Source: Octopus vulgaris (Eukaryota). From it: a DNA stretch of 64,000 nt. The position numbers and the translations under genes are program-made. Numbering within the stretch: the stretch's first letter is position 1; each line of letters starts with the position of its first letter. The notes under the pieces were generated by a model, which worked only from the letters and a program-made list of their open reading frames with translations, ran no database searches and had not been told where the DNA came from. The stretch covers positions 7,688,001 to 7,752,000 of the forward strand of contig OX597823.1 in assembly GCA_951406725.2 (NCBI GenBank), in the 5' to 3' direction. Positions 1,186 to 59,800 of the stretch are shown piece after piece.

Positions 1186-2026
1186 CATATATATATATAT
1201 ATATATATATGTAAAAAAATACAAACTGGGACAAGAACGCAAAACATTTAGAAGACGATACAAAAAACACGGACAGGACATTCGAAGCCTTCAATCTTCA
1301 GTCGAGAACCGGATCATCCTCACAATTTCGGCTGATTAATCTTGCGATTGCTCCGGTCTGGCCAGCCCGAAAGGAAAATCTAAGCCAAGCGCATTAGATT
1401 CCTTGGAAGAAAGCCTCGAATGTATACAAAACAAGGACGGAAAACGGACGATGTTACACAAATGAGAATACAAAAATATATACATATATATATATATATA
1501 TCAATATATGTATCAAATGAAATAAATGAAAAACAGGACACAGAAGATGTTGTGGTACATATGTTTTGAGCTTTATAGAACACCTTATTCTTACATCAAT
1601 GCATAATCGACATAACAGATAGTTCAAAAGCCCTCTTCAGCCGCATGCAATTGCTACACCAAAGACTTGTATCACATTATGAAAGGTTTCAGAAAAAACA
1701 TTTGGTATTGTTTATAATGGTTGGTAAACCGAGTATCACTGGGAAAGTATGTTTGTAAATCTTCATAGGTGTACATGGTATTATTAGACTCCAAAACAAA
1801 TCGTCTATACTGTTTTCTCACTCAATATAGAATGAATACTGGGTAGGTTCCTTCATGTAAGGGAAGGAATTGGATGTTAAGAGAAAGAGAGAAAGGAGGG
1901 GAAGGGGAGGAAACGTTAATCAAGTTGGGATCACAAAAAAATATATATATAAATATAAATGTAATTATAAGGGATAATAAGATATAAAATATACAAAAAA
2001 TGTAAAGATGTAAAAATATAAGTATA

Positions 2027-2411
2027 TCTTTATATATAAAAGTGAAGTTGTGTGTCTGTCTCCTACGATTTAGATTCCTAACTACTCCCACATTTTGCGG
2101 TGCAGTGTAACCAAAAGCGGGTATCTTATAGTCGTGATTCATATCGAGTCCTTCTGGGTATTAGTGCACGTCTACGATGAGTCTACGATTTAAAAAAAAA
2201 TTTACCATAATTTTTTCATTTTTAATGCATTTTTTGCTATTATATAAGGGAAGTAACTCTCTAAAAATGTATTATTAAATCTCAGAACGTAAAAAGCTAC
2301 AGTAACACCCCGCGCTTTGTGGTTAGCCATATTGAGATGGCTATTATACTTTACATCTCTAAAAATGCTTATATAGTTATTTCCCTAACAAACCTGAGCA
2401 ACTACTGCTAG
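2027..2411 (+). mobile_element. Non-autonomous Helitron, family C
   Basis: 5' A|TC, 3' CTAG|T, no TSD; hairpin partly deleted in this copy. Confidence 0.8.
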
Positions 2412-3255
2412 TAAAGATATAAAGAACTTCAGGTATAGGGTCATAAATTCTAGAAATGTATTGTGAAAGTGTAAAAGGTACAAAAAATAAAAAGTAAAAA
2501 ATAAAAAAGACAAAAATAAAGATAAAGTGAAATAAGGATAAAAGGAACAAAAGTATATACAGCGGTCAGAGATGATGGGTTAAAGTTCTGATGCTGTGGT
2601 GAGTGTTGTAAATTACTTTTAATTATCGGGTGTGGGGGGGGGGGGTATAGTAGTAGGCGAGTGGTCAGTCTATAGGAGTTTGACTTTATATGCTCTAAGC
2701 CTATCTTATCTGTGTGTACGTGTGTGTGTGTGTGTGTCTACATACTTACCCACTCTCACATATATAAACCTGTCTCCTGCATCTAGTGCACACACACACA
2801 CGTGTATATATACATATATACATACATATGTACATACGCACACATATAATATATATTCCCACATACACATATATACATGTATATATATACACCCAGATAC
2901 ATGCCCATATACATAAACGTACATACAGATACATATATATACACATACATGCACGTATACATATACATATACTAACATATATACATATACACATATGCAA
3001 ACACATTCATATGGCCCCCACCTATATACACATACATATACAAAAGTACACATATGCCTACACGACCGACGTGTCCATACATACAAATATACGCACTCAC
3101 ACATGCACACACATGTACATGCCTATACAATTTCTACACACCACAACATATGACGGTAGAGGATCCCCATAAACTGGTTACAATATAAGCAAAACCGAAA
3201 ACATAATAAATAAAATACACAGATAAATAAACAAATAGAAATAAATAACTCTATA

Positions 3256-3465
3256 CTCTTTTTACTCTTTTACTTGTTTCAGTCATTTGACTGCGGCCAT
3301 GCTGGAGCACCGCCTTTAGTCGAGTAAATCGACCCCGGGACTTATTCTTTGTAAGCCCAGTACTTATTCTATCGGTCTCTTTTGCCGAACTGCTAAGTGA
3401 CGGGGACATAAACACACCAGCATCGGTTGTCAAGCAATGCTATGGGGACAAACACAGACACACAA

Positions 3466-3496
<31 letters not shown>

Positions 3497-3665
3497 CATA
3501 TATATACGACAGGCTTCTTTCAGTTTCCATCTACCAAATCCACTCACAAGGCTTTGGTCGGCCCGGGGCTATAGCAGAAGACACTTGCCCAAGATGCCAC
3601 ACAGTGGGACTGAACCTGGAACCATATGGTTGGTTAACAAGCTACTTACCACACAGCCACTCCTT
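3256..3665 (-). mobile_element. SINE family A
   Basis: Full-length match to the other copies. Confidence 0.9.
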
Positions 3666-4183
3666 TTTTTTTTTTATTTAAAAGATATTTTTTTGATTTA
3701 TTATTATTATTATCATTATTATTATTATTACTAGTATTGTTGTTATACATACATACATACAAGCATATGTAATGATAATAATAATAAGTGGATGTAAACA
3801 CATGAACAAAATAAGAATAAACAAAAACAACAACAAAAACAAATTACACGAACATATATAAACAGAAGATACAAATAATACAGGCATCCACCACACACAC
3901 ACACACACACACTAAATAAACATAGACGCACATAGAGATATAAGCATGCGCAAATGAAGACATACAATAGAAATACAAAATGACTGACGGTTAGTAAGGA
4001 GAGACACAAATAAGAAAGAAGAAAACAAAGGACCACTGATGCGGTCACAGGAGTGTGAACTCTCCGAAATAAGATTAAGATTAATGTAAAAAATAAATAA
4101 CACTGAAGCAAAATAACACCAAATATATAGTGCGTGTGTTTTTATTGGCTAAACTGGCAATATGACCATTCCAAAATACAACA

Positions 4184-28800: not shown

Positions 28801-28959
28801 TTCAAAAGATCAAATATGTCGGGACTTCTTCAAACACTGGAATTCTTCGGATACACTACTCTGTCATGTTATGTCTTTTTCCTAATGCTTGGAACTGTCT
28901 CATTTTTTGCATCTCTGAAGTTTGTACGTTACATTTATGTCAACTTAAAAATGGACTAA
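7983..28959 (+). CDS. TM9SF1: Transmembrane 9 superfamily member 1 (nonaspanin/EMP70), 3' part; 5' exons lie upstream of the window or were not found
   Basis: join(7983-8054,12852-12999,15232-15357,16529-16621,17591-17701,23158-23320,27384-27575,28758-28959). All introns are GT-AG with compatible phases. Translation contains [68 protein letters not shown] and ends YIYVNLKMD*, as recalled for TM9SF1. Confidence 0.96.
9884..10200 (+). mobile_element. SINE family A-related (same head, different tail), diverged
   Basis: Head similarity followed by (TG)n. Confidence 0.6.
12321..12702 (+). mobile_element. Non-autonomous Helitron, family C
   Basis: 5' TC, subterminal hairpin, 3' CCAG variant; same body as other copies. 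Confidence 0.8.
12852..12999 (+). CDS. TM9SF1: TM9SF1 exon ([49 protein letters not shown])
   Basis: ctttag|ACT...TTGG|gtaagt; 148 nt. Confidence 0.96.
13564..13970 (+). mobile_element. SINE family A
   Basis: Full-length copy. Confidence 0.9.
15232..15357 (+). CDS. TM9SF1: TM9SF1 exon ([42 protein letters not shown])
   Basis: acttag|GT...TCAG|gtaagc; 126 nt. Confidence 0.96.
15580..15952 (+). mobile_element. SINE family A
   Basis: Full-length copy. Confidence 0.9.
16529..16621 (+). CDS. TM9SF1: TM9SF1 exon ([31 protein letters not shown])
   Basis: tttcag|GT...GCAT|gtaagt; 93 nt. Confidence 0.96.
17591..17701 (+). CDS. TM9SF1: TM9SF1 exon ([37 protein letters not shown])
   Basis: ttctag|TG...TTTG|gtaata; 111 nt. 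Confidence 0.96.
18678..20085 (-). mobile_element. 5'-truncated RTE-like LINE (RT C-terminus, 3'UTR, (GAT)n tail), degenerate
   Basis: Minus-strand [16 protein letters not shown] / [12 protein letters not shown] and [21 protein letters not shown] motifs with frameshifts; 3'UTR equals the dispersed family B repeat. Confidence 0.85.
22565..22960 (+). mobile_element. Non-autonomous Helitron, family C
   Basis: A|TCTTTATATATAAAA...CCCGAGCAACGCTGGG..CTAG|T. Confidence 0.85.
23158..23320 (+). CDS. TM9SF1: TM9SF1 exon ([54 protein letters not shown])
   Basis: ttacag|TG...TTCAG|gtaata; 163 nt. Confidence 0.96.
23517..23918 (-). mobile_element. SINE family A
   Basis: Full-length copy within a TA run. 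Confidence 0.9.
24155..24530 (-). mobile_element. 3' end of a second RTE-like LINE family
   Basis: [34 protein letters not shown]; (TGA)n tail; second copy at 59418-59687. Confidence 0.8.
24837..25265 (+). mobile_element. SINE family A with TSD AAGAATTCAACCAGC
   Basis: Full-length copy with duplicated flank. Confidence 0.9.
25803..26166 (-). mobile_element. Non-autonomous Helitron-like element, second family
   Basis: Minus strand: A|TCTATTATATAAAA..(TG)n...hairpin CACCATCC/GGACGGTG...CTTG|T. Confidence 0.6.
26462..26873 (+). mobile_element. SINE family A
   Basis: Full-length copy. Confidence 0.9.
27384..27575 (+). CDS. TM9SF1: TM9SF1 exon ([65 protein letters not shown])
   Basis: ttgcag|T...GCAGG|gtaagt; 192 nt. 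Confidence 0.96.
28346..28559. mobile_element. TTAA-flanked (piggyBac-type) MITE
   Basis: TTAA|CCCTTTAG...CTAAAGGG|TTAA; copies at 57159-57380 and, diverged, 16245-16457. Confidence 0.85.
28758..28959 (+). CDS. TM9SF1: TM9SF1 last coding exon ([32 protein letters not shown]...YIYVNLKMD*)
   Basis: ttccag|G TCC...GAC TAA; C-terminal KxD motif typical of TM9SF proteins. Confidence 0.96.
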
Positions 28960-29486
28960 TTCAGTTTCATTTAATCTTGTTTTTATTTATCATTATCAAT
29001 TTTAATGATTTTTTTTTTTCCATATATCTTGGGAAACAGTAAAAAGTTAACACTATTATAAGGGGTCTTTTTTTTTAATTTCAATTGCAGTTATTATTTT
29101 TACTCTTGACGTAGAAAAATATCCATATTTAATATTTTTCAAAAGAATTTTCAATAATTGTAAATGAACGTGGCAAAATATTTTTTAAAAATATGTATAA
29201 ATAATATTTGGTTATGAAAGAGCAGCATTTTAGTATGTAATAGCATTGCATATTCAAGACCCAAGAAGATCATTTCATTCAAAATCATCTTTTATTAGAA
29301 CTTAAGCATTGACTGTTTTTGTTGTTGTTTTTTTTTTTTGTTTTTTGTTTGTTTTTTTCTGGTGCACTCAGAAGATTAAGTGCTGAGAAAGGTACTTTTT
29401 TATGGGGTTTTATAAAATTCACAATTGTAGAAGGTTGATGAGAGATTTGATCTGAGAACCTGCTGAAATGGAAACAATTACTCTGT

Positions 29487-29873: not shown

Positions 29874-30263
29874 CATACATTACATTGTACTCTGCAAACA
29901 AATATTTGAGTCTTCTTTTGTTTTATGATTGCTTTAAATTCATGTGTATATATGTGTTTGTTTGTGTGTACACACATATGTATATGAGAAATTTTATATA
30001 CCAAGTAAGTTACGCGTTTTAAATGTATCTAGAGAGAAACCAATTCTTTTGAGTGTGACTTTAGCATAATGAATCAATATGTTTTAACTCTCTAATCCTA
30101 AAGTTTGTCCAAATACACAGTAAAAGATTGGTGTGGCGTATTCTATTTGTTTAGGATACTTATATACCATTTCATATTTTTACTTATATTTTTGGTGTGG
30201 CTGGGGCTCAGTATTCATATTTCAGCAATCATATCTGCTTCTTTATTGCCCACAAGGGGCTAA

Positions 30264-30526
30264 ACTCTGTCATGTTATGTCTTTTTCCTAATGCTTGGAA
30301 CTGTCTCATTTTTTGCATCTCTGAAGTTTGTACGTTACATTTATGTAAACTTAAAAATGGACTAATTCAGTTTCATTTAATCTTGTTTTTATTTATCATT
30401 ATCAATTTTAATGATTTTTTTTTTTCCATATATCTTGGGAAACAGTAAAAAGTTAACACTATTATAAGGGGTCTTTTTTTTTAATTTCAATTGCAATTAT
30501 TTTTACGCCTGAAGTAGAAAAAATAT
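30264..30526 (+). pseudogene. Duplicated fragment of TM9SF1 last exon plus proximal 3'UTR
   Basis: Near-identical to 28858-29122 ([12 protein letters not shown]...NLKMD*). It lacks the native acceptor and is preceded by an in-frame TAA. Confidence 0.92.
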
Positions 30527-31457
30527 AACAAAGACAGACAAACGGATTAAGTCGATTACATCGACCTCAGTGTGTAACTGGTACTTAATTTATCGACCCC
30601 GAAAGGATGAAAGGCAAAGTCGACCTCGGCGGAATTTGAACTCAGAATGCAACGACAGACGCAATACCGCTAAGCATTTCGCCCAGTGTGCTAACGTTTC
30701 TGCCAGTTCGCCGCCTTCAGCAATCTTCTTACAGCCTTGGAAAATATATAACTATCATAACTTAACATTTTCCTTTCATACTTCTATCATGAATCATATA
30801 TTGTTTTATATACAGTTGTTGAAACTAATAATATTGTCAACCCTTTTGTTATAAACTCTCCTGCGACTGCCCTTAGTCCTCTGATACAAACTCTTGCTTT
30901 ACAGTGGCCTACGTTAAAAACCTGTTAAAGTTTCATGTTAATTTATATTCGAAACACCAGCTTAATAATGATAAAAGTTGTTTTTCTCAGTTCTTTATCA
31001 TTTTCAAAATTAATTTAAACAAAAAGTTCCGAGACCCCCTTCGGTCACGACACTGATTGCACCTAGAAAGTTACCCTCCCAGGCACAAGTCTGGGCAAGG
31101 TTGTTAATGGAAGACCAGCAGTCGCCCATGCATACTGGCCTCCCCTCTCCATGCCACGAGTGTTATCCAAGGGAAAGGCATTTATTTGCTTATTAAAAAA
31201 AAAAAAAATAGTGAAATAATAACAAATATAATTCATGCTAACCTGCTGATGATATGGAAAGGTATCCATCATTGCAATGGATTCAGAAAAGCTCGCAATA
31301 GCTCTGAACTCCTGCAGTTTCTTCATGGGGCAAAGCATCTCTGGTGTTTAATTTACATGCTAACATAGAATAAACAAACATTGTAATCCAGTGTTACTTG
31401 AGTCTACTAAAGATGCCAATATTTGTTGCTATTGATACAAACGATATGATTGCTGAA

Positions 31458-31688
31458 GGCGGCAAACTGGCAGAAACGTTAGCACACCGGGCGAAATGCT
31501 TAGCGGTATTGCATCTGTCGTTGCATTCTGAGTTCAAATTCCGCCGAGGTCGACTTTGCCTTTCATCCTTTCAGGGTCGATAAATTAAGTATCAGTTACG
31601 CACTGGGGTCGATGTAATCGACTTAATCCGTTTGTCTGTCCTTGTTTGTCCCCTCTATGTTTAGCCCCTTGTGGGCAATAAAGAAACA
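31458..31688 (+). mobile_element. tRNA-derived SINE family D with 15-bp TSD
   Basis: GGCGG..TGGCAGAAACGTTAGC..GAGTTCAAATTCC head. GATATGATTGCTGAA is duplicated at 31443-31457 and 31689-31703. Other copies at ~221-362(-), 30527-30718(-), 36372-36585(-), 38512-38732(-), 38767-38977(-), 48899-49110(+). Confidence 0.88.
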
Positions 31689-32606
31689 GATATGATTGCT
31701 GAAATATGAATACTGAGCCCCAGCCACACCAAAAATATAAGTAAAAATATGAAATGGCATATAACTACCCTAAACAAATAGAATACCCCACACCAATCTT
31801 TTACTGTGTATTTGGACAAACTTTAGGATTAGAGAGTTAAAACATATTGATTCATTCTGCTAAAGTCACACTCAAAAGAATTGGTTTAAATTCAAAAGCA
31901 GAGGAAGTTTGTAAAATGCTGGTGTGAGATTGTAATATTGGTGACCAAAGTCAGTTATTAAGAACTTCAAAAAAATGTTTAAAATGATATTTTAAACAGT
32001 TAAAAATATATTAAAATACGTTTCAATAACTATAATAATTATTTGATAAATACTTTGATCACAGATTTGAAGGAGAAAAAATGTACATTTTGTTGAAGGA
32101 CTGAAATTTAGTTTTAACTTTATTGACCTTGGAGGGTGTATGACAGAATTTATACTGGTAGGATATGAACTTAGAAATGTTGCAAAGCATTTAGTCTGAT
32201 ACTACATATCATGTTTAACATCATATTCCTTATCTTGTTTAATGCATCTGCATTCTTGTAATCAAAAATAAAGAGTTTACAAAACTTCAACATGTTTTGT
32301 TAATCTATTCATCAACTTTTCAATCTGAAGGTGCAACTGTCATTTGTGAATACAGACTTGATAAAATATGTCGTTCTATCCATTTTCTCATGGAAGTAAC
32401 TAAAGAAGGAATCAGTTCATTTTAATACTTACTGTCTTATTTTAGAGCTAGCAAAAGAAAATTGTTAATATTACTGCAACAAGTAATTTTACAATATGAT
32501 TTTATTTATTCATAAATTTGATGAAAATTTATAATTAAGATCAGAAACTATAATAGCAATTGCAAAGGTATATTTTCAAGGCAAGTGTTTTGATTTGAGA
32601 CTACAT

Positions 32607-32970: not shown

Positions 32971-33545
32971 TACATGTTGAAACTAAAACAATTGCAACAT
33001 GGAAGACCCATGTTAGCCATTCAGAAACACACTAAGACTGTTAACTTCACTTAAACATTTATTGTTTGTAGTATAGTGTCAAAATTTTCATCATGTGAAA
33101 CTGTGACCTCACAGTGTTTATCATCATCATTTAACGTCTATTGCCCATGCTGGCATGGGTTGGACTGCACCATATTACAAACAAGAAATGTTTAAGAGAA
33201 GTTAAGTCTTTGTTTGTTTCTGAATGGTGAACATGTGTCTTCCACATTGCAATTGTGTAAAAGTAATCACATGATCACGTGACCGACCAGTCCATCAGAT
33301 GTAGTTACACATCGCTGGTCACAATGCGTTCGCATTGTTTTAGCCTTCGAATGACGCCACCCCGCTGGCTAAGCGAGCAGGCCAGTATAAGTAATACTGT
33401 ATCAAAATAATTTCAGATATATTGAAATAAATGATAATTATAAAAGTAGACTTTCTCCAATGAAATTTAGATGGTAAAATGTATAAGAATGGACATAGCT
33501 AAGTATTGTAATAACATTTGGGTTCGGATGTCACACAAGAGAATA

Positions 33546-33908: not shown

Positions 33909-34346
33909 TTATATATAAGATGGTTGCAGAAAATTTAGTTAATTATCTTCATACCATCAACAGATATTGCAATTTCAGGTTCCTAGTCCTTTTGGTCTTT
34001 TTTCTTGTACATATATATTCAGGGTACTTTTTTTTCTATACTCTGTCATAACTGTATAGCTTGAAAGTTAAAGGGGTCACTTCAAAAAATTACTACCAGA
34101 AGTCTTTATAGATATTTCGTTTTTACACTCGAGCATGGTCGATACCAGTGTCACCTAACTGGCCCCTGTGCTGGTGGCACTTAAAAGGCACCCACTACAC
34201 TCTCAAAGCGTTTGGTGTTAAGAAAGGCATCCAGCTGTAGAAATCTTGCCAGATCAGATTGGAGCTTGGTGCAGCCTCCTGGCTTGCTAATCATCAGTTA
34301 AACCATCCAGCCCATGCCAGCATGGAAAACAAATATTAAATGATCA

Positions 34347-34391
<45 letters not shown>

Positions 34392-34415
34392 AAGGGTGAA
34401 AAGGAACACACGAGT

Positions 34416-34461
<46 letters not shown>

Positions 34462-34496
34462 AGGGTGAAAAGGAACACACGAGTTGATATATATAT

Positions 34497-34900
34497 GAAA
34501 AAACAAGTCAAGATAGAAAATGCTAAAATAATTTTATAAAGAACATTTCAGTACCGGTTTCGGTCATTTTGAGACCTTTTCAACTGTAACGATTAAATAA
34601 TTAAATTTAGAAAATTTAAAAGAAAAGTTTTTTTAAAGGAATATTTGTATTAGTGTTCAAATATAAGTGGCATTTTCCTTGTGTCTGCCTTTCTGTGCAA
34701 ACAAGAGAGACAGAGAAAGGCAGAATGCCACTTATATTTGAACACTAATACAAATATTCCTTTAAAAAACTTTTCTTCTAATTTTTCTAAATTTAATTAT
34801 TTAATCGTTACAGTTGAAAAGGTCTCAAAATGACCGAAACCGGTACTGAAATGTTCTTTATAAAATTATTTTAGCATTTTCTATCTTGACTTGTTTTTTC
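34497..34900. mobile_element. Fold-back element with ~180-bp inverted arms inserted in (TA)n; each arm has a hammerhead-like motif
   Basis: 34497-34674 is the near-perfect reverse complement of 34724-34900; flanked by TA runs. Confidence 0.85.
34811..34848 (+). ncRNA. Minimal type-I hammerhead ribozyme motif, U3-A8 variant (mirror copy at 34549-34586 on minus)
   Basis: CAG-TTGAAAA-GGTC(TCAAAAT)GACC-GAAA-CCGG-TA-CTG: stem I, core, stem II, GAAA, palindromic stem III, GUA triplet. Confidence 0.65.
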
Positions 34901-35178
34901 ATATATATATATATATATATCATCATCATTTAACGTCCGCTTTCCATGCTAGCATGGGTTGGACGGTTCAACTGGGGTCTGGGGAGCCCGAAAGCTGCAC
35001 CAGTCCAGTCAGATCTGGCAGTGTTTCTACAGCTGGATGCCCTTCCTAACGCCAACCACTCCGAGAGTGTAGTGGGTGATTTTATGTGCCACCGACACAG
35101 GTGCCAGACGAGGCTGGCAGACGGCCACGCTCGGATGGTGTTTTTATGTGCCACCGACACAGGTGCCAGATGAGGCTG

Positions 35179-35659: not shown

Positions 35660-36330
35660 TTGAAATACAGGGCGCATTCCAGAAGTCTTGAGACATTTTT
35701 CAGGACAGACATGTATGAATTTCAAAGTAGTACAAATCTCTAATCTCCTTCAAAGTAGAATCCTCTGATTTCAATGTACTTGTAGTAGTACTCCAGCTAT
35801 TTCATTAAAGCCCTGTGGAAGTCCTCCAAAGTGAAGGTGCCCAGGACCCTTGTCACAGCCTCCTTCATCTTCTTCAGCTTGGAAAACAACCAAAAGTCAC
35901 CGAGAGCAAGGTCTGGGTTGTTGGCAAGGTGAGAGACAGTTTTGATGCCCATCTCTGTCAAATTATCAGGATGGAATTGTGGACTGGTCTTGTACAGGTG
36001 CTCTGAACTTTTACAACAAAATGTCTTCCAAAACTCGTTCAAAAACTCAACAGTGTACTCTTTGTTGACTGTATGGCCAAAGGGAATTCAGTGGATGTAG
36101 ATGATGCCCTTGCTGTTGAAAAACAAGACCATCATGAGTTTCCCAGTGAACCTGATTTGCCTTGCCTCTTGTGCTAGCAAAAAGACATGCTCAACTCATA
36201 CAAGTTAATCCATTGGCAGGTCTGATGCATTTTGTAAGTTTCTGTGGCATATTTGCCTAGTTTAACACTAAACCTTATTGCATAGTGAGCTTCCAAACTG
36301 CCTTCACGTCCCAACTGGATTCTAAAAACT
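35660..36330 (-). mobile_element. Degenerate mariner transposase relic
   Basis: SHLANNPDLALGDFWLF resembles the mariner HPPYSPDLAP.DF.LF motif. Confidence 0.7.
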
Positions 36331-49000: not shown

Positions 49001-50778
49001 TTCATCCTTTCGGGGTCGATAAATTAAGTACCAGTTGCAAACTGGGGTCGATCTAATCGACTGGCCGCTCCCCCAAAATTTTGGGCCTTGTGCCTAGAGT
49101 AGAAAAGAATATACACACTTCTGAGATGGTAAAATAAAATATACTGTCAAGTTAAGATTAATTTCTAAAAAATGTAATGACCTTACCTAAAAGGTAACTG
49201 CCCGGAATGAAGAAAATTACACTGAAATATGTAAAGATTAAACAATCAAAATACAATAAATAATATATTTATAAATTGGTAAATTTTATTCTACATTCTG
49301 CATTAAAATAATGCTTATGTTAGGGAGTTAACTCAATCAATTACATTCCTTCCCAATAAAATCTGGCTTATAAAGTGTAAGAAAGCATTAATGAGCTTAG
49401 CCATAGAAAAGGAATTATAAGTGGCAACCCAAATCCTGACATAGTTTCAATTTCTCTTTGAATCTTTTTCATTTACAATGTTAAAGCCTTTGGGAAAAAC
49501 ATGAATATTGTACTTTCCTTTTTCTTTAAAAATATGGTATACAAAATGATATCAAATGTTCCCAGACTCTCTCTTTCTCTTTTCTCTCTTTTACTTGTTT
49601 CAGTCATTTGACTGCGGCCATGCTGGAGCACTGCCTTTAGTCGAGCAAATCGACCCCAGGACTTATTCTTTGTAAGCCCAGTACTTATTCTATCGGTCTC
49701 TTTTGCCAAACCGCTAAGTTACGGGGACGTAAACACACCAGCATCGGTTGTCAAGCGATGTTGGGGGGACAAACACAGACACACAAACATATACACTCAC
49801 ACTTATATATATATATATATACATATATACGACAGGCTTCTTTCAGTTTCCGTCTACCAAATCTACTCACAAGGCATTGGTCAGCCCGAGGCTATAGTAG
49901 AAAACACTTTCCCAAGGTGCCACGCAGTGGGACTGAACCCGGAACCATGTGGTTGGTAAGCAAGCTACTTACCACACAGCCACTCCTGCGCCTAACTAGT
50001 TATGTTTAGTAAAAAAATAACTTATTTACCAAAGTTTTAACATCACACCCTTCGAAATAGTCACCTTGTGCAGCAATATACCTGTCCCAGTGTTCCTGCC
50101 ACTTTTGGAATCTGGGAAGTTGTTTTCCGTAAGTGGATCAAGAACCTTCCGTGATTTGCTCTGGATCTTGACAGTGGTGTTAAAACAGCGACCTTAGATC
50201 TGGATATTTATCTTGAGGAAGTGATGAAAGTCTGCAGGTTCTGTATCTGGTGAATAGCGGAGGTACAGAAGTGATTCCATGTTGTTTTTGGAGATAAATT
50301 TATGAGTGAGGAGGGCTCGGTGACAGGGTGCATTGTCATTGTAATGAATTCTTTGTGCTTCACAGATCCAGTTGCCTTCACCAAATGTCCTCCCTCCAAT
50401 GCTTCAAAACATCGTTGATTGTCCTCCAATGATCCTCATGCACAAGCTGAGGAATTTTCTAAATCAATGGAAATTGTAGTTGTGATACCAGTGCCGGCGG
50501 CATGTAAGAGAACCATCCGAATGTGGCTGTTGCCAGCACTGCCCCCACTGGCCTCCGTGCTGGTGGCACGTAAAAAGCACCATCCGATCGTGGCCGTTTG
50601 CCAGACTCGTCTGGCACGTAAAAAGCACCCACTACACTCACGGAGTGGTTGGCGTTAGGAAGGGCATCCAGCCGTAGAAACACTGCCAGATCAGACTGGA
50701 GCCTGGTGCAGCCTTCTGGCTTCCCAGACCCCAGTTGAACCGTCCAACCCATGCTAGCATGGAAAGCGGACGTTTTAC

Positions 50779-50809
<31 letters not shown>

Positions 50810-53800
50810 CCCAGGGGTGACGCTTGTGGAAGATCTTCCAGATCGCTCATCATATTCCAGGGATGTTCTTCTGCTTTTGAAGCCCCTGTGCCACTCGAAA
50901 CATTGTGTACAACCCATTGTCTCATCACCATAAACTTGCCAAAACGTGCTCAATGTCTTTGTAGCAGACTTCCCAAGTTTAACACAAAATTTCCCGTTGG
51001 CACTTGTTCCTGTCCATGACAAAATCACAGACCACAGCTTCCACATGATCACAAAGACACAAATTTCACAACTTGCTAAGTAAACATAGCGATGTCACTC
51101 GCCACATTGCCTCGTGGTGGTCACTGCGAGCTCTCACTGCGCATGCAGCCATGTGCTGCCATCTGATGATGCACTACAGAACTAATCAGGGAACTTTTTG
51201 ATACCACCTCATATTTGTGATTAGATGATGATGATGATGATAAACAAGAAGCCAATGATGAAGTGCAGTGCATGTTCTTGAAATATGAAAATGGTGACCA
51301 AGAGGCTCCACAGAATTTCGTTTTGTATCCCCTTAGCTTCTGTTTTAATGAGTTTGACTTAAATGAACATAGAGTGTAGTGTAGTAAGAAATTTGCTTCC
51401 CAACATGGTTCTAGATTCACTCCCACCATGTGGGACCTTGAGCAAGTGCCTTCTGCTATAGCCTCAGGCTGACCAAAACCTTGTGAGTGGATTTGGTAGA
51501 TGGAAACTGAAAGTAGCTTTTCGTGTGTATGTGTGTCTGTCTGTCTGTGTCTTTGTGTCTGTGTCTGTGTGTGTGTGTGTGACCACTGCTTTACAACCAT
51601 AACTTAACAGTTTGGCAAAAGAGACCAACAGAATAAGTACCAAGCTTTAAAAGAAAATAAGTACTGTGATTGATTAGTTCAACTAAAATTCCTCAAGGCA
51701 GTGCCCCAGCATGGTCGCGGTCTAAAGACTGAAACAAGTAAAAAGATAAAAAAGAAAAAGCTGAATTGCATTCATTTTGCATATAAGAGGCCAATTTTTT
51801 ATATATATTAATGAGAATTACCAAAACTTACCTGAATATATAATTATAGTAAAGTAATTCAATTTTACTGAAAAAAAAAATAGTAGAAGTAGTTTGATAA
51901 ATAAATAAAAGTATTCTTGGAAAAGTTTTAGTTTTAAAAGTTGAGTACTTAGATTCTTTTTATTTCTCTACTTTTGCTCTATGTCAAGATAAAGAGCTAA
52001 ATTTAAGACAGAACTGGAGATCACTCACCTCTTCCTAAGACTAGATGTAACTGGTAACTATTTTTCACTACAATAACTTTCACAAAACAGACAACATTAA
52101 GAACAATCCTTGCGGCAGGATTTTCCTATCTTCAATTCTTTACCTTTCACTGACCCCAAAATTTGTTTCCTAAATCTAGGATATCATACCCTTAATACTG
52201 TGCACAATTGAACAATACTACCATAGTAGCTTTCGATGAATAAACACAACAGTAGCTGCACACTATGAACGATGTTTCAGTATTGTTGACAGCATTGTCA
52301 TCTCTTATTATAAAAGGCAGATTTTATCTGCCTCCCTTTGGGAGTTATACAAATCTACAATATAGGATTTCTTCAATTACAATTTACCTGGCATTTTTAA
52401 GAGTACAATGCATCGCGTCATGCCAGGTCCAGTTTTTAAAATTTAAACTCCAATTAAGCAAAATTTACAGAAAACTCACATTCTGGTGTGTGTGTCAAAT
52501 GCTTTTCTTAGTCTGGTTTACACCACACGCAAACGCACACACACAGTGGGCAACGAATAAAATGAAAGTAAATAGCGGACAGAGTGATTTGAGGAAGACT
52601 AAAGTGAAAGTATTCTGTCTATGACGATGATAGATACATGAGTAAAATGTATGGGAAGCTAAGAGCTAAGAGTGAGTGAAAATGTTCTTGGAAGAGAGTA
52701 ATTAGTAATAAAGTAAACATACACTCATACATACATACATACATACATATATACATACACACACACACACACATACACACACACATACATACACACACAC
52801 ATACATACATACATACATATACATACATACATACATATACATACATACATACACACACACACATACACACACACACAGTATTGAAGCTTGAGAACAATCA
52901 GATACATTTGCAACACATCTGTTGAAAATATTATTGTTCACACACATACATATACATATATACATACAGACAGACAGACAGATAGACACACACACACACA
53001 CACACATGATCCAGCATGGCCACAACCTCAAGGCTGAAACATATAAAAGAATAACAGAATATAAATGTGTGCAAAGTACAAGAAATATTAATGCAGTATA
53101 TGGGGATTGGACAATAAGCGTAAGGCAGTGTCAATGGTGGTTCCAGAAATCCCGAGCCATAAACTACAGCCTAGAAGACGAGCCTCATCCTGAAAGATCT
53201 GTAGAACTCGACAAGGACATCCTGAAAACCCTGGTGGAACAAAATATCATCGTAACTGTTGAGGAACTAGCAGAGAAGCTTGGATTTGGTCATTCAACCA
53301 TTCATTGACACCTGTGTGCTATCGGAAAAGTCAGCAAATTGGGTCAATGGGTTCCTCACGAACTTTCCGAGTCTAATTGCATGCAGAGAGTGAATGTATG
53401 CTTTTCTTTGCTGTCATATCTCACCACTACTGCGCTATGTATATCTATATATATAAAACTGTAGTTGTGTGAGTGTCTGTCCCCTTCGATTTAGATTCCT
53501 AACTACTCCCACATTTTGCGGTACAGTTTAACCAAATTCGGGTAGCTTATAGTCGTGATTCATATCGAGCCCGTCTGAATATTAGCGCGCGTCTACGATG
53601 AATCTACGATTTTAAAAATAATTTAACATCATTTTTTATTCCATTTTAATGCATAATTTTTCGTGTGTCGATGGCGGCGGAGTTGGCGTCCACGCTCACA
53701 TCTGCACCTGTGGGGAAGGGAGTGTAAGGAAATCAACGTCGTAATGCGTTGTCAAGGAGACCAGTGTTCTTTTAGAACAACGACTTCATGGCTTCAAGAC

Positions 53801-56800
53801 ACCAAAACAGAAATGGCTAAGAAAGCGTCTACATGAGTCTACGATTTAAAAAAAAATTTACCATCGTTTTTTTCCATTTTAATGCATTTTTTCGCTATTA
53901 TATAAGGGAAGTAACTCTCTAAAAATGTCTACGATGAGTCAACGATTTTTAAAAAAAATTACCATCATATTTTTTCCATTTTTAATGCATTTTTTGCTAT
54001 TTTTTGGCTATAACTCTCTAAAAATGCTTATATAGTTATTTCCCTTACAAACCCGAGCAACGCCGGGCGATACTGCTAGTTACTAATATTAACTAAACTA
54101 GATATTAAAAAAATACACTAGCAAAAATTCCATCTACAAAAGCCATTATATTTGGAAGAGAAATATTGGAATAAAATATGCAAGATAGAACTTGATTGAT
54201 TAAAATAATAGAACAATAACATTTATATTACCAGAAGTTAATTGCAAATTACCAGATAATGAGATCTGTGCCAGAATCAGACTACAGATATATGACAGTC
54301 ATAATCAAGTACTCCAAAAGAGTATATAGATTGAGGCATGTTATATACAGAATAAGCTAAATTTAATAGTTATCGCCATACTAATATGGCAGTCTATAAA
54401 TATAAGACTAAAGCTGTCGCTGATTAGCTCCAAGAGGCCATCGCCTCTAGCTAGCTATATGACACACGAACCTGCGTCCATTACAATCTTCGAACAGGGG
54501 AGGTCAGCCGCTTCACCTTGCTAGTCAGACATCTGCAGACATGTTTCAGGGTTGTTGCCCTTTATCAATGCAGCGTAGTCAGAGCCAGCAGGTGTTGCTA
54601 CTGTTCGAAGGTTGTAATGGACGCAGGTTCGTGTGTCATATAGCTAGCTAGAGGCAATGACCTCTTGGAGCTAATCAGCAACAGCTTTAGTCTTATATTT
54701 ATAGACTGCTATATTAGTATGGCGATAACAATTAATATCCAGTAATGCTGCCGTAATCTCCTTTAGAGAGACTTAGTAATTTTAATATTTCTATTAAGCT
54801 AAATTTAGTTTTATCCGAAGAGTTATTCACAATTAGGCAATCAAAGGTTTTTGTCTGTGAAACATATTTTCACGCAACCATTTGTTTCAACTACCAATCA
54901 GGAATCAGTTGCTAATATCAGTTGCTAGATTTAGGAAACAAATTTTTGGGTTAGTGAAAGGTAAAGAATTGAAGATAGGAAAATCCTGCCGCAAGGATTG
55001 TTCTTAATGTTGTCTGTATAAGGATGTTGTCTATATAAGGATGTTCTAGTGTAAAATTAGCAGAACAAATAATTTGGAAACAAAATCAATTTGGGAATAC
55101 AATATTTTTTCAGATTTGATATAGAAGAAGAACAGGCAGATAGTAGGTAGATGAATGATAACCAAAGCACTGGTTTGGAGAGCAATTATATTGTAAGAAC
55201 TGAGTTGGAGTGTCACATAAGAGTGATTATAAAAGCTATTTGAATATATGTAAGCAAATAAGCAAAATAGATGTAAGAAAATTATTTGATTTTACTGCAG
55301 ATATGAACTGACCATAATCAATTAACTAAAGTGTGCTTAAATAACATATTAAATCAACAAACAAGAATGTCAATACAGATAGTAAAACAAAAAAATACAA
55401 TGATATTAAATTACAAAATTAGTTAAGAAAATATTTTTAGAATTGGTTATTAATAATAGATGGCAGGCAGAACTAAAAGACAATCAAACAGTAATCTGTG
55501 AGGGTTGATAAGAAGGAACTGTAGCATAAGAGAGAGGAGAAAAGTTTTTAGATAGATCATAAGAAGCAGTCAAACATATTTTGAAATGGCATAAATATTG
55601 CAATGGTCTTAAATCACTGCCATAACAAAAACTATTTTCTTTTTTAAGAATTAAAGGCTGTGTATGAAAGCTTTTCACTGCAATGGGTGATAGATGATAA
55701 TACAAAAAATATGGCCTTTGTTAGAGATAACTCTAAGAATCTGTACAATTTCTTTAATGAACATTTTACATATAAAGTAAGAGTGAACCAATGAACTTCA
55801 AAATCTACTGTGATAAGTTTTTCAATTATTTAACAGTTTACTAACTTTTTCACTTACTACATTGTGTAAAATGGTTAGAATTAGAAAGGACATCCAACTG
55901 TAGAAATCATGCCAAAGCAGACAGTCCTTTGGCTTACCAGTTCCTGTTAAACTGTCCAACCATAGCAGTATAGAAAATGGACTTTAAATGGGGATGATTA
56001 ACAGGAGAGCTGGATATTGCAAAAGGATTATCATTGTATTTGATGCATAAAAGATTTTGGAAAGAGCACAAAGGACAAATAGAGATATAGCTAATTATCC
56101 TTATTTGTATCTGCTAAGTTTCTTTGCTCAAATTTTAATAAAACAGGACATTAGAATTTGAATGTCTCCAAGTTTCAATTTCAGTCTATTTAAACATCTG
56201 TTTTATGGGTTTTAAATTTCAATTGAAACTTTATAAATAAAAAATAAAATTCAAGATCTGATTTAAAATTACATTGTTCAATAAAGATTTATTTACTATT
56301 ATAGTGTAATCTTGGCCAATCCTTTTGAGACAGGAATTTTTGTTAAAATACATGTATTTTTCTGTCAAACTGATATATTTTTTAACAGGAAAGCTCTAGT
56401 AAAAGATATGTAAATAAATACCTTGCTTCTATGATATCTTTATTGAATTCAATAAATACCACAATAGCACCTGGAAGAAAAAATAATTTCTTTTCAAAAT
56501 GATGTATTTAAATTAATTAATGTTCAAATAACTTTATCATGATATTTCAAATTAATAAAACAATAACCTATTTTTTTACAAGGAAACCAAAGCTTTCTTT
56601 GCAACCTTGGGGCTTCGGGTTCAGTCACACAGCACAGCACTTGGTCAAATGTTTTCTACAATAGCCTTGGGTTGACCAATGCCTTGTTAGTGAATTTGAT
56701 ACAAAGAAACTGTGTTGAAGCCCGTCATTTATATATGTGCGCATAAAAGAGAGAGAGAGAGAGAGAGAGAGTGTGTGTGTGTGTGTGTGTGTGTCTGTCT

Positions 56801-59800
56801 CCCAACCATCTCTTGGCAACTAGCCTTGGTTTGTTTACATTCCTGTAACTTAGTGATTCAGCAAAAGAGACTGATAGAATAAGTATCAAACTTAAAAAGT
56901 AAAGTACTGAGGTCGATTTGTTCAACTAAAACTCTTCGAAGCAAGTTCCAGCATGGCCGCAGTCCAATGACTGAAATGAGTAAGATAAGAGACACACATG
57001 TGCGTGTATGTGTGTAAAAGGACTTACTACAAGTTTATTCATCTACTATGCATTTATTAAAGTCTGTGTGTGTGTATGTTCATCTTCTCTCTCAAACATT
57101 CTCTCCCTCTCTCTCTCTCTCTCTTATTTGCCTCTAGCACTTGAGGGAAACCTTTTAACCCTTTAGCATTTAAACCGGCCATATCCAGCCAAAAGTATTT
57201 TACCTGTTTTATGTTCAAACTGGCCAGATCTAGTCTCTCACACCAACCCTACAATATCATTCTAAAAATTAACAGCTACCTCATCAAAATTTCATAGCTC
57301 CAACATAATGCATGATTAGTTCAAAACAATGTGGATAAAAAAAGCATTAATTTTGGCAGAATAATGCGAACACTAAAGGGTTAAACATTTGGAAATATTC
57401 TTTTATAGGCGACTCTTTCTGCTGACTACTCTTGCACATCTGCTATGGATGAGGTCTTTCTTTTCTTTCAGCCTAAATATGATACCACTGTATGTCTTGT
57501 GTACCTACAACAGTTTACACTAGGTACACTGCATGGCATTCCTACCTACCTATTTACTACATATCAAGCATAGGCATTTTCCAGATGACAGCAGGGTTCT
57601 ACTAACTTAAACTTTTGTCATTGCTAGGTTTAATTTTGGACTTCTTAATTTTTAGGCTTTGTTTCCATTTTTGAAATATCTTCTTTAAGTCTTTAATATT
57701 GGGTTGTCAGGAAAGTTCGTGCCGATTTTTAAAGGAAAGAAAAAGGGCAATAAATACTTGCCATTACATTTTTAATCAACCATATATGAACCATTTTGTT
57801 ACACAATGCATCTCCATCTTTCCTTTAACTTGAAAATACCCGCTTCCCAGAATTGAGTTGGTTTCATGGCAATAATTTATCAAGGTATCATTTTACGTCA
57901 TCCAAGGAATTGAAATTTTTACCATAAAGACTATTCTGCAGAGACCTGAATAAGTGGAAATCCAAAGGAGCAATATCTGGTGAATATGGAGGGTGGGGTA
58001 ACACATCCCAGCCGAGCTGCAGCAATTTTTGTCTGGCTCCCAAGGCATCAAGTGCCGAAAATGAACTTTCTTATCTTCCATTTTAAAGGGTTACAGAATT
58101 AACACAGGTTATAGGAACATAAACCTTCTTCCATGAAAAGATAGCTTAAACTGTGCTCTAAATGGAGGTGTAGTCAAATCCTATTTTATGGACTCAACCA
58201 TGTTCTAAAATAAGTCGAAAGATAAGGTACTATAAATCGGCAAGAACTTTCCAGACAACCCAATAGTTTCAGCTTGAGAATTGGATCTGCAACATGCAAA
58301 CGTTCTCACAGATACCTAGTCTTGTTATGGCATGGAAATCTGTAAAAATCAAACAGGATAAAGATGAGAACTGAGCCCTGATGGGCCCTGATACCAGCAG
58401 GCTAGATTTTTTACTGAACCCATCAGTAACTCAAACCTTGCAAAAGGGAAAGGACCTTTGTTGCCAATAGTAGTAGTAGTTTACTGAACTTTCTCAAACC
58501 CATTCTTACTCTAGCTACTATACTACAGAGTAACCATCTTCCTCGCTAATTACATAAGCAAACGTTATCAACACAGACACACAGCCATCCTGACATTTAG
58601 GAGAATAAACACCAATGTGTTCAGAGTGCATGCATCTACTACGAAGCTTACATTCCCTGTTAGCTTGCCTGTGATTCCACTACATCTCTTGTCTATCCAT
58701 AGCTTACACTGAGTATACAATGTATGGAGTTTACATGTAGCCCTTTTTCTGCGTATCAAGGTCCTGTCTTTTTCCCTACTTACTAAAACTGTCGTCTTTG
58801 CTAAGCTTACCTTAAGTTCTAGGTTTAGCTTCCAAGCCTGGAATTTTCTTTCTAATTCCCCAATAAATTCAGCTATGAGAACAAGACCATCACCATATAG
58901 GAATTCCTATGAACATCCATTCTTAAACTCCTCATTGATAGCCTATCAGGCAATGATGAATAGGAAAGGACTGAGGATTGAACCATGATGGACCTCTATC
59001 CTCACATTAAATTCTTCACTGAAATTGTTGTTGACTCTCACTTTATTTACTGCATCTTTGTACATAGCTTGTACAGCCCTCACAAGCTATTCATCTACAC
59101 AGAGTTTCCTTTGTGACTACCAAATTACTGAATGAGGTCCTCTGTCAAATGCTTCCTCTTAGTCAATGAATGCCAGGAACAGGAGTTTACCCTGTTTTTC
59201 CAAGTATTTCTTCTGCAGTTGCCTTACTACAAAATTGCATTCGTGGTACACCTTCTGAACATGAAGCAAAATGCATCTCATTTACGTCCACTCTATCACA
59301 GATCAATTGTGCTTTGACTTTCTCTATGACCTTCATAACTAGTTCCAGTAGTTTGAATTTTCTCCATTGTTGCCTCTCTCTAATGCATCTCCTTTGCCCT
59401 TGTAACTGTTTATGATTATCATCATCATCATTGTTCGACCGTGGTCGAGACAATGGAATTTACCATGCTACGCCAGACTTCACAGTCCATCATGGCATTA
59501 CGAAGGTCCTGTTGCTGGATACCTGTATCCCTGGAGATTACATCAGGGTAGGAGAGTGTGCGCCCTCTGGTATTGCGAGTAGATGGCTTCCAGAGGAGGA
59601 GAGTAGAAATTACCTCTTTTTCAGCTCTACAACAATGTCCAGCAAACTGGACTCTCTTACCTTTCACAAGAGATGACACAGGTGGTAGAGATACGGTACA
59701 ACTAATAATAACTTTCAGGAGATACAGTAACATCTATATAATAAATATTATTCCATAAATTTGGTGGTTCACTATGTACAAGCATTACAATAACTAATTT

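What the first reader, a model, noticed from the sequence alone, without database searches (positions are those of the whole stretch)
34497..34900. Second, unrelated palindromic element carries the same U3-A8 hammerhead variant in both arms
Seen: a ~400-bp near-perfect hairpin in (TA)n between the convergent gene ends. Each arm contains CAG UUGAAAA GGUC-UCAAAAU-GACC GAAA CCGG UA CUG (+34811-34848; -34549-34586), the most GC-rich island in otherwise very AT-rich arms. Both motifs point outward, so a read-through transcript from either strand meets the antisense copy first and should sequester the ribozyme. Only transcripts starting inside the element would leave it free. Inference: a Penelope-derived inverted terminal repeat that has become a MITE-like unit with a self-silenced ribozyme.
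Basis: partly seen in the sequence, partly recalled or inferred. Interest (0 to 1): 0.78.

Follow-up and report, generated by a model that had tools for sequence, protein, structure and literature searches.

The report
Head-to-head Penelope ends with twin hammerheads
A 404-base DNA hairpin with a hammerhead (self-cutting RNA) motif in each arm is likely an ordinary truncated insertion of a Penelope-type jumping gene: both arms belong to an abundant repeat family, and the hairpin centre differs from copy to copy.

Summary
The hairpin (34497-34900) and both outward-facing type I hammerheads with a U3-A8 core are real. The arms belong to a very abundant family in three related animals (1887-3751 contigs per large run). 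The window's centre is not shared: 13 of 15 listed joints join left arm to right arm elsewhere, at roughly single-copy depth, and only 2 of 7 resolved centres keep both hammerheads. The family also runs on upstream of the centre. This fits a 5'-truncated Penelope-like (PLE) end plus an inverted 5'-truncated copy in (TA)n, likely with a 39-nt tail on one side, better than a fixed MITE-like unit. U3-A8 cores, opposite-strand hammerhead pairs 100-700 bp apart and head-to-head pLTRs are all published for PLEs. Read-through RNA would bury the motif, but a freed monomer is not predicted to fold either; it folds only as a dimer, so self-silencing is likely incidental. No RT/GIY-YIG parent was reachable and no convergent gene was found. 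One lead: the two arms carry different alleles that are both common in the family, hinting at two template RNAs.

The parts
34695..34900 (+). Direct, 5'-truncated copy of the family's 3' end (likely pLTR), 206 nt
   Evidence: fixed outer end at (TA)n; 29, 18 and 5 contigs in X1, X5, X9 share further family sequence upstream of 34695
34497..34694 (-). Inverted, 5'-truncated copy, 198 nt; lacks the first 19 nt of the right arm and has 10 extra nt (34674-34683)
   Evidence: the 10-nt reading is mine; the global aligner scored it as mismatches
34811..34848 (+). Type I hammerhead motif: helix I 3 bp (extendable by 34806-34809/34850-34853), core U3-U4-G5-A6-A7-A8-A9 at 34814-34820, helix II 4 bp, GAAA, palindromic helix III 34839-34844, predicted cut after A17 (34845)
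34549..34586 (-). Identical hammerhead motif in the inverted arm
34694..34695 (.). Head-to-head junction, particular to this copy
   Evidence: tables 3 and 5
34458..34496 (-). Likely 39-nt optional 'tail' (9 nt of TA plus a 30-nt unit) on the left arm only; the unit is repeated at 34388-34418
   Evidence: two copies in the window, none elsewhere in it; table 7: 2 contigs of X9 show the unit's last 6 nt plus TA next to the arm end; tail concept from PMC8557442. Inferred, thin evidence.
34350..34457 (.). (TA)n target, left side (interrupted by the first copy of the 30-nt unit)
34901..34918 (.). (TA)n target, right side
34130..34349 (-). Flanking copy of a common interspersed repeat (SINE-like; label recalled), not part of the element
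   Evidence: (I2, I3)
34919..35178 (+). Second flanking copy of the same repeat, opposite orientation

Best explanation
The hairpin is likely one insertion of a Penelope-like retroelement (or a non-autonomous derivative), in which a 5'-truncated copy of the element's 3' end was joined head to head to an inverted 5'-truncated copy inside a (TA)n tract, so each arm carries the family's hammerhead motif. Shown: arms, motifs, (TA)n flanks, family abundance, a fixed outer end and variable centres. Inferred: a GIY-YIG endonuclease nicked the (TA)n tract and reverse transcription began at the family's 3' end and stopped after about 200 nt; a second, inverted copy arose in the same event. The hammerhead is of the dimer-dependent PLE kind and would work in tandem or paired transcripts of source elements. 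In this copy it is likely a passenger: buried in duplex on read-through and without a sense partner otherwise.
For:: 3751, 1887 and 3066 contigs of three organisms lie on the arms; loose ends at the outer end run into (TA)n; 13 of 15 listed joints (of 21) join left arm to right arm at other places, at depths 5.8-83; after setting aside 5 joints with unknown middle and 1 likely duplicate, 7 centres remain, 2 with both hammerheads, 2 with one, 3 with none (plus my reading of table 5c). Window-type depth at the junction is 0/9.6/85 against 148695/32629/292202 at 34683. X9 records 29 and 30 run 103 and 136 nt past the centre with no listed return to the other arm. The 61-nt motif cofolds as a double hammerhead (helix III 0.91-0.99, swapped helix I 0.96, helix II 0.99-1.0). 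The only two variable motif positions are the partners of pair 10.1-11.1. The second palindrome (54363-54735) fits the same scheme with a shorter inverted arm that stops before its hammerhead. Precedent: PMC4209133, PMC8557442, PMC3846280.
Against: No RT or GIY-YIG sequence is linked to the arm: none in the window, no genome held, no true relative in viral, metagenome or prokaryote collections, and 4 arm strings are absent from the Naiad/Hydra/Chlamys supplement. Only 21 joints were reported for a family this abundant, so most copies' structure is unseen. The arms differ at two sites where both alleles are common in the family, which a single-template fold-back does not predict. No target-site duplication can be read in (TA)n. 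With longer flanks (131 and 206 nt) the dimer minimum-energy fold loses helix I. Contigs come from short-read graphs; joint sides are mostly 20-28 nt.
Confidence: 0.75

Rival explanations
1. A longer palindromic master (PLE-derived, non-autonomous) was amplified as one unit, MITE-like, and individual copies later lost their centres, as long palindromes tend to do (recalled).
For: The left-arm and right-arm alleles at 34619/34778 and at the 10-nt indel are both common in all three organisms (tables 2, 3). Ten of 13 joints have arms within 25 nt of equal length, as symmetric central deletion would give. A centre more than about 40 nt inside my query would not be bridged by short contigs.
Against: No high-depth left-to-right joint exists. 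X9 records extend 103 and 136 nt past the centre with no listed fold-back. Near-symmetric, palindromic junctions are also described for primary PLE insertions (PMC3846280). A likely one-sided tail is a PLE insertion mark. Many other polymorphic sites show several subfamilies, which explains two alleles without a fixed master.
Confidence: 0.15
2. The element is a foldback or MITE-type DNA transposon that captured a hammerhead-bearing fragment, or a monomer of a tandem retrozyme; the PLE likeness is secondary.
For: Long terminal inverted arms and TA flanks also fit DNA transposons (PMC4486113, search listing only). No ORF was seen. Animal retrozymes also carry type I hammerheads (bioRxiv 10.64898/2026.07.22.740005).
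Against: Variable centres with a fixed outer end and upstream extension; no tandem array here; hammerhead 55 nt from the outer end with palindromic helix III, as in PLE pLTRs.
Confidence: 0.07
3. The motif is a chance look-alike in an AT-rich repeat and has no ribozyme ancestry.
For: Below Rfam gathering score; monomer fold z -0.6 to -1.2; not significantly more conserved than the arm (p 0.73).
Against: 8 of 20000 arm shuffles give a hit, 2 with a palindromic helix III; all 3 window hits lie in palindromic repeats; the dimer folds as a double hammerhead; no core base varies at 5% or more.
Confidence: 0.03

Closest known systems
PLE hammerheads of Cervera and de la Pena 2014 (PMC4209133; parts 1-2 of 4 read, supplement passages)
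   Same: Type I motif, short helix I, palindromic helix III, dimer-dependent; U3-A8 core reported in Schistosoma PLEs (about 1300 hits); dual motifs 100-700 bp apart on opposite strands; Fig. S4A describes a 5'-truncated PLE with a second motif on the opposite strand at its 5' end.
   Different: Here helix II is 4 bp without the extra unpaired base after A9; 'octopus' has no occurrence in the one supplementary file searched; no ORF is left between the two motifs.
Inverted 5'-truncated pLTR arrangements of endonuclease-bearing PLEs (PMC8557442, PMC3846280; passages and one supplement part read)
   Same: Head-to-head inverted copy at the 5' end, slightly shorter than the direct copy; optional 30-40 bp tail at one end; (TA)n target; Penelope-13_HM is listed with a hammerhead on each strand.
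   Different: Extreme truncation leaves only the two ends. The motif differs from that listed for Hydra-1_Obim, and 4 arm strings are absent from that supplement, so the clade is unassigned.
Non-LTR retrozymes of animals (bioRxiv 10.64898/2026.07.22.740005; part 1 of 5 read)
   Same: Short, non-coding, PLE-related repeat with a type I hammerhead.
   Different: Retrozymes are defined there by tandem units each with a motif; this copy is inverted, not tandem.
MITEs / foldback DNA transposons (recalled; search listing)
   Same: Short, high-copy, long inverted arms, TA flanks.
   Different: No shared centre or length among copies; one-sided tail likely; hammerhead present.

Membership tests
Type I hammerhead ribozyme, PLE dimer kind | Catalytic core with paired positions 3 and 8, GAAA and UH site | tested here: met
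   U3-A8 is a natural, active covariation per PMC3088659 passage
Type I hammerhead ribozyme, PLE dimer kind | Helices I and II, short palindromic helix III completed in a dimer | tested here: met
   for the 61-nt motif; helix I is lost in dimer folds of 131 and 206 nt
Type I hammerhead ribozyme, PLE dimer kind | Conservation or covariation across copies | tested here: inconclusive
   2 of 38 against 8 of 102 variable positions, p 0.73; both variable sites are pair 10.1-11.1, phasing only inferred from 3 contigs of X9
Type I hammerhead ribozyme, PLE dimer kind | Self-cleavage | not testable with these tools
   needs an in vitro assay
Penelope-like element | RT plus GIY-YIG ORF in full-length members | tested here: inconclusive
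   none in the window; no genome held; upstream sequence seen only as 30-nt loose ends
Penelope-like element | Fixed 3' end with variable 5' truncation | tested here: met
   tables 5, 7, 8; later central deletion is not excluded
Penelope-like element | Inverted 5'-truncated copy at the 5' end | tested here: met
Penelope-like element | Hammerhead near the 3' end (pLTR) | tested here: met
   predicted cut 55 nt from the outer end
Penelope-like element | Optional 30-40 bp tail at one end | tested here: inconclusive
   39-nt candidate on the left only; 6 nt of support in 2 contigs
MITE | Uniform length and shared interior among copies | tested here: not met
   junction depth and 13 other joints
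MITE | Target-site duplication and a partner transposase with the same ends | not testable with these tools
   (TA)n hides a duplication; no genome held
Non-LTR retrozyme | Tandem units each with a hammerhead | tested here: not met
   no tandem array at this locus; other loci not seen

The most novel reading that the evidence does not exclude
Head-to-head PLE ends are made from two different template RNAs: both nicked target strands prime reverse transcription, each on its own RNA, and the palindromic helix III of the hammerhead is what pairs the two RNAs. This copy would record such an event, because its arms carry different alleles at two sites where both alleles are common in the family. 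A side prediction is a pile-up of 5' ends at the cut site (3 listed joints have an arm starting at 34846-34847, though alignment clipping may explain this).
Probability: 0.15. Interest if true: 0.6.

Novelty: new member of a known kind. Interest (0 to 1): 0.24.

Why it matters
As it stands it adds one abundant U3-A8 hammerhead-bearing PLE family in what is likely an octopus (taxon recalled from the flanking repeats, not tested). Families with this core escape CUGANGA descriptors and Rfam thresholds, and such hairpins can be mislabelled as MITEs. Its better use is as a test set: many short head-to-head copies with subfamily alleles would let one ask, from a long-read assembly alone, whether the inverted arm is copied from the same RNA as the direct arm. 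PMC8557442 names the formation of inverted PLE structures as unresolved, and PMC3846280 proposes self-priming on an antisense template.

Tried and rejected
No own genome was held, so copies were seen only through contigs laid on the stretch. Full-motif scans of metagenome and viral contigs: 0 matches each. Relaxed scans: 13 metagenome and 3 prokaryote loci, all 16 without helices I and III or arm similarity, rejected as chance. No RNA holder is on record; X9 is only guessed to be RNA, so expression is untested. A>G differences enriched in X9 (34536/34861, 34600) could be editing, but X9 also has other private changes, so they are not counted. Summed contig depth (1e4-1e6) is not a copy number and is used only as a contrast to junction depth. 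Earlier findings of this scan: 4 look-ups, none returned anything. Lunse et al. 2017 is not held; its dimer result is known to me only through review passages (PMC6765202). One supplementary file of PMC4209133 could not be searched, and the O. vulgaris repeat library is on Zenodo, out of reach; either may already hold this family. A search for 'hammerhead ribozyme' with 'octopus' listed 4 papers, none on this family by title or abstract start. An ATG in loop II (34830) opens only 14 codons, so no ORF start was found in the arm. Rfam miRNA hits reflect hairpin shape only.

Full report
Observation. The stretch 34497-34900 is a near-perfect hairpin: outer arms of 150 nt at 98%, -289.9 kcal/mol against -66.6 for shuffles. 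A descriptor scan finds the stated motif at +34811-34848 and -34549-34586, and a third, unrelated U3-A8 motif at -54533-54573 inside another palindrome. Only 1 of 100 window shuffles and 8 of 20000 arm shuffles give any hit (the descriptor was written after seeing the motif). Rfam has no match at gathering score, and a weak Hammerhead_HH9 match on each arm (20.9 bits, E 0.014). The motif is GC-rich relative to the arm (45% against 28%), but the innermost 38 nt are 47%. A TM9SF/EMP70 gene on + ends near 28960. I found no convergent host gene in 337 frames scanned; the direct neighbours are two opposed copies of a common repeat. That the host is an octopus is recalled from these repeats, not tested.

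Anatomy. The right arm (34695-34900) is the longer copy; the left arm lacks its first 19 nt and has 10 extra nt at 34674-34683, besides two substitutions and a one-base indel. Both 3' ends face outward into (TA)n. The predicted cut lies 55 nt from the outer end. Left of the left arm, 9 nt of TA and a 30-nt unit (34458-34496) have no counterpart on the right; the unit is repeated once at 34388-34418 and is found nowhere else in the window. Two contigs of run X9 show its last 6 nt next to the arm end, so it may be the optional 30-40 bp tail of PLEs; this is thin evidence.

Family. No genome was held. Twenty of 24 listed runs, from three organisms, hold part of the stretch. Laying four runs at 80% likeness placed 3751, 1887, 3066 and 40 contigs. 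Loose ends at the outer end run into (TA)n. At the centre the picture differs: depth with the window's letter at 34695 is 0, 9.6 and 85 in the three large runs, against 148695, 32629 and 292202 at 34683. Of 21 joints 15 are listed; 13 join the left arm to the right arm at other places, at depths of 5.8-83, about that of single contigs. Five of these have an unknown middle and two appear to be one locus read from opposite sides, leaving 7 resolved centres: 2 keep both hammerheads, 2 keep one, 3 keep none (and my reading of table 5c). Loose ends before 34695 in 29, 18 and 5 contigs share a further family sequence, and X9 records 29 and 30 run 103 and 136 nt past the centre with no listed return to the other arm. 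So the 3' end is fixed, and the 5' end and the centre vary. Limits: these are short-read contigs, joint sides are mostly 20-28 nt, and most copies' structure is unseen.

The ribozyme motif. No core base varies at 5% or more of depth. The two variable motif positions are the partners of pair 10.1-11.1 (C to U at 13-35%, G to A at 0.4-9% in the large runs); three X9 contigs suggest that the A and U occur together. Overall the motif is not measurably more conserved than the arm (2 of 38 against 8 of 102, p 0.73). The monomer never forms helix III (0.0 in 11 of 11 contexts). Two copies of the 61-nt motif cofold as a double hammerhead with probabilities of 0.91-1.0, though with 131 or 206 nt of context helix I is lost from the minimum-energy dimer. 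RNA starting at or left of 34570 buries the motif fully; RNA starting further in restores helix II only partly (0.08-0.53) and helix I hardly (at most 0.07). Self-silencing is likely a by-product.

Mechanism. Most likely (0.75) a PLE endonuclease nicked a (TA)n tract, reverse transcription copied about 200 nt of the family's 3' end, and an inverted truncated copy was made in the same event. The enzyme steps are inferred from other PLEs (PMC11167929, passages: AT-rich cleavage, extension of both strands, tail, protein-assisted hammerhead not needed for insertion in vitro). The palindrome at 54363-54735 fits the same scheme with an inverted arm too short to include its hammerhead. The main rival (0.15) is a longer palindromic master amplified whole, with later central deletions. 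It gains from the fact that the two arms carry different alleles at 34619/34778 and at the 10-nt indel, both common in all three organisms, and from near-equal arm lengths in 10 of 13 joints. It lacks any high-depth centre. No RT/GIY-YIG parent could be linked, so PLE membership rests on non-coding features.

Comparison with what is known. PMC4209133 (parts 1-2 of 4, supplement passages) reports U3-A8 cores in PLE hammerheads, dual motifs 100-700 bp apart on opposite strands, dimer-dependent low activity, and a 5'-truncated PLE with a second motif on the opposite strand. PMC3088659 (passages) reports natural U3-A8 covariation. PMC8557442 (passages and supplement part 2) describes the inverted 5'-truncated copy, the tail, (TA)n targets and octopus Naiad and Hydra families, none matching this arm in 4 string searches. 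PMC3846280 (passages) calls head-to-head the most frequent inverted arrangement. PMC13282606 (part 1 of 3 and passages) counts 31 recently active PLE families in Octopus vulgaris and has no occurrence of 'hammerhead'; its library was out of reach. Eight paper searches listed no description of this family.

Verdict. A real feature and a new member of a known kind; interest 0.24. The boldest reading not excluded (0.15) is that the two arms were copied from two different RNAs, paired through the palindromic helix III. Arm-by-arm allele tables from a long-read assembly would test it directly.

Noticed in passing
window 54363-54735: Second palindrome, 135-nt arms, single U3-A8 hammerhead on the minus strand in the 103-nt spacer (54533-54573); fits a direct truncated PLE end plus a shorter inverted copy from an unrelated family.
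   Followed up: partly
window 34735-34813 (+): Very AT-rich stretch (11-18% GC in several 38-nt windows) ending in an AG exactly before U3; a second subfamily keeps the last bases but has other pyrimidine-rich sequence upstream. It may be a splice acceptor, as in D. virilis Penelope, where the intron ends at helix I (PMC4209133). No donor seen.
   Followed up: no
window 34536/34861 and 34600: A>G differences (antisense to the element) are far commoner in X9, guessed to be RNA, than in the three large runs; could be editing of the duplex or copy-specific alleles.
   Followed up: no
window 30037-31887 and 28858-29119: About 260 nt of the last TM9SF exon and 3' UTR (28858-29119) are duplicated at 30264-30522 (97%), inside nested inverted repeats of 229 and 199 nt.
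   Followed up: no
window 33000-33244: Another hairpin (arms about 80 nt) with a fragment of the common repeat in its loop; no hammerhead found by the descriptor; a related stretch lies at 3-90.
   Followed up: partly
window 34130-34349 and 34919-35178: Two opposed copies of one interspersed repeat flank the element (76-83% complementary) and would lengthen the duplex in read-through RNA.
   Followed up: partly
window 50462-51094, 52892-53305, 35800-36087, 57891-58070: Decayed mariner-type transposase pieces (HTH_48 hits for the first two; the others judged by eye).
   Followed up: no
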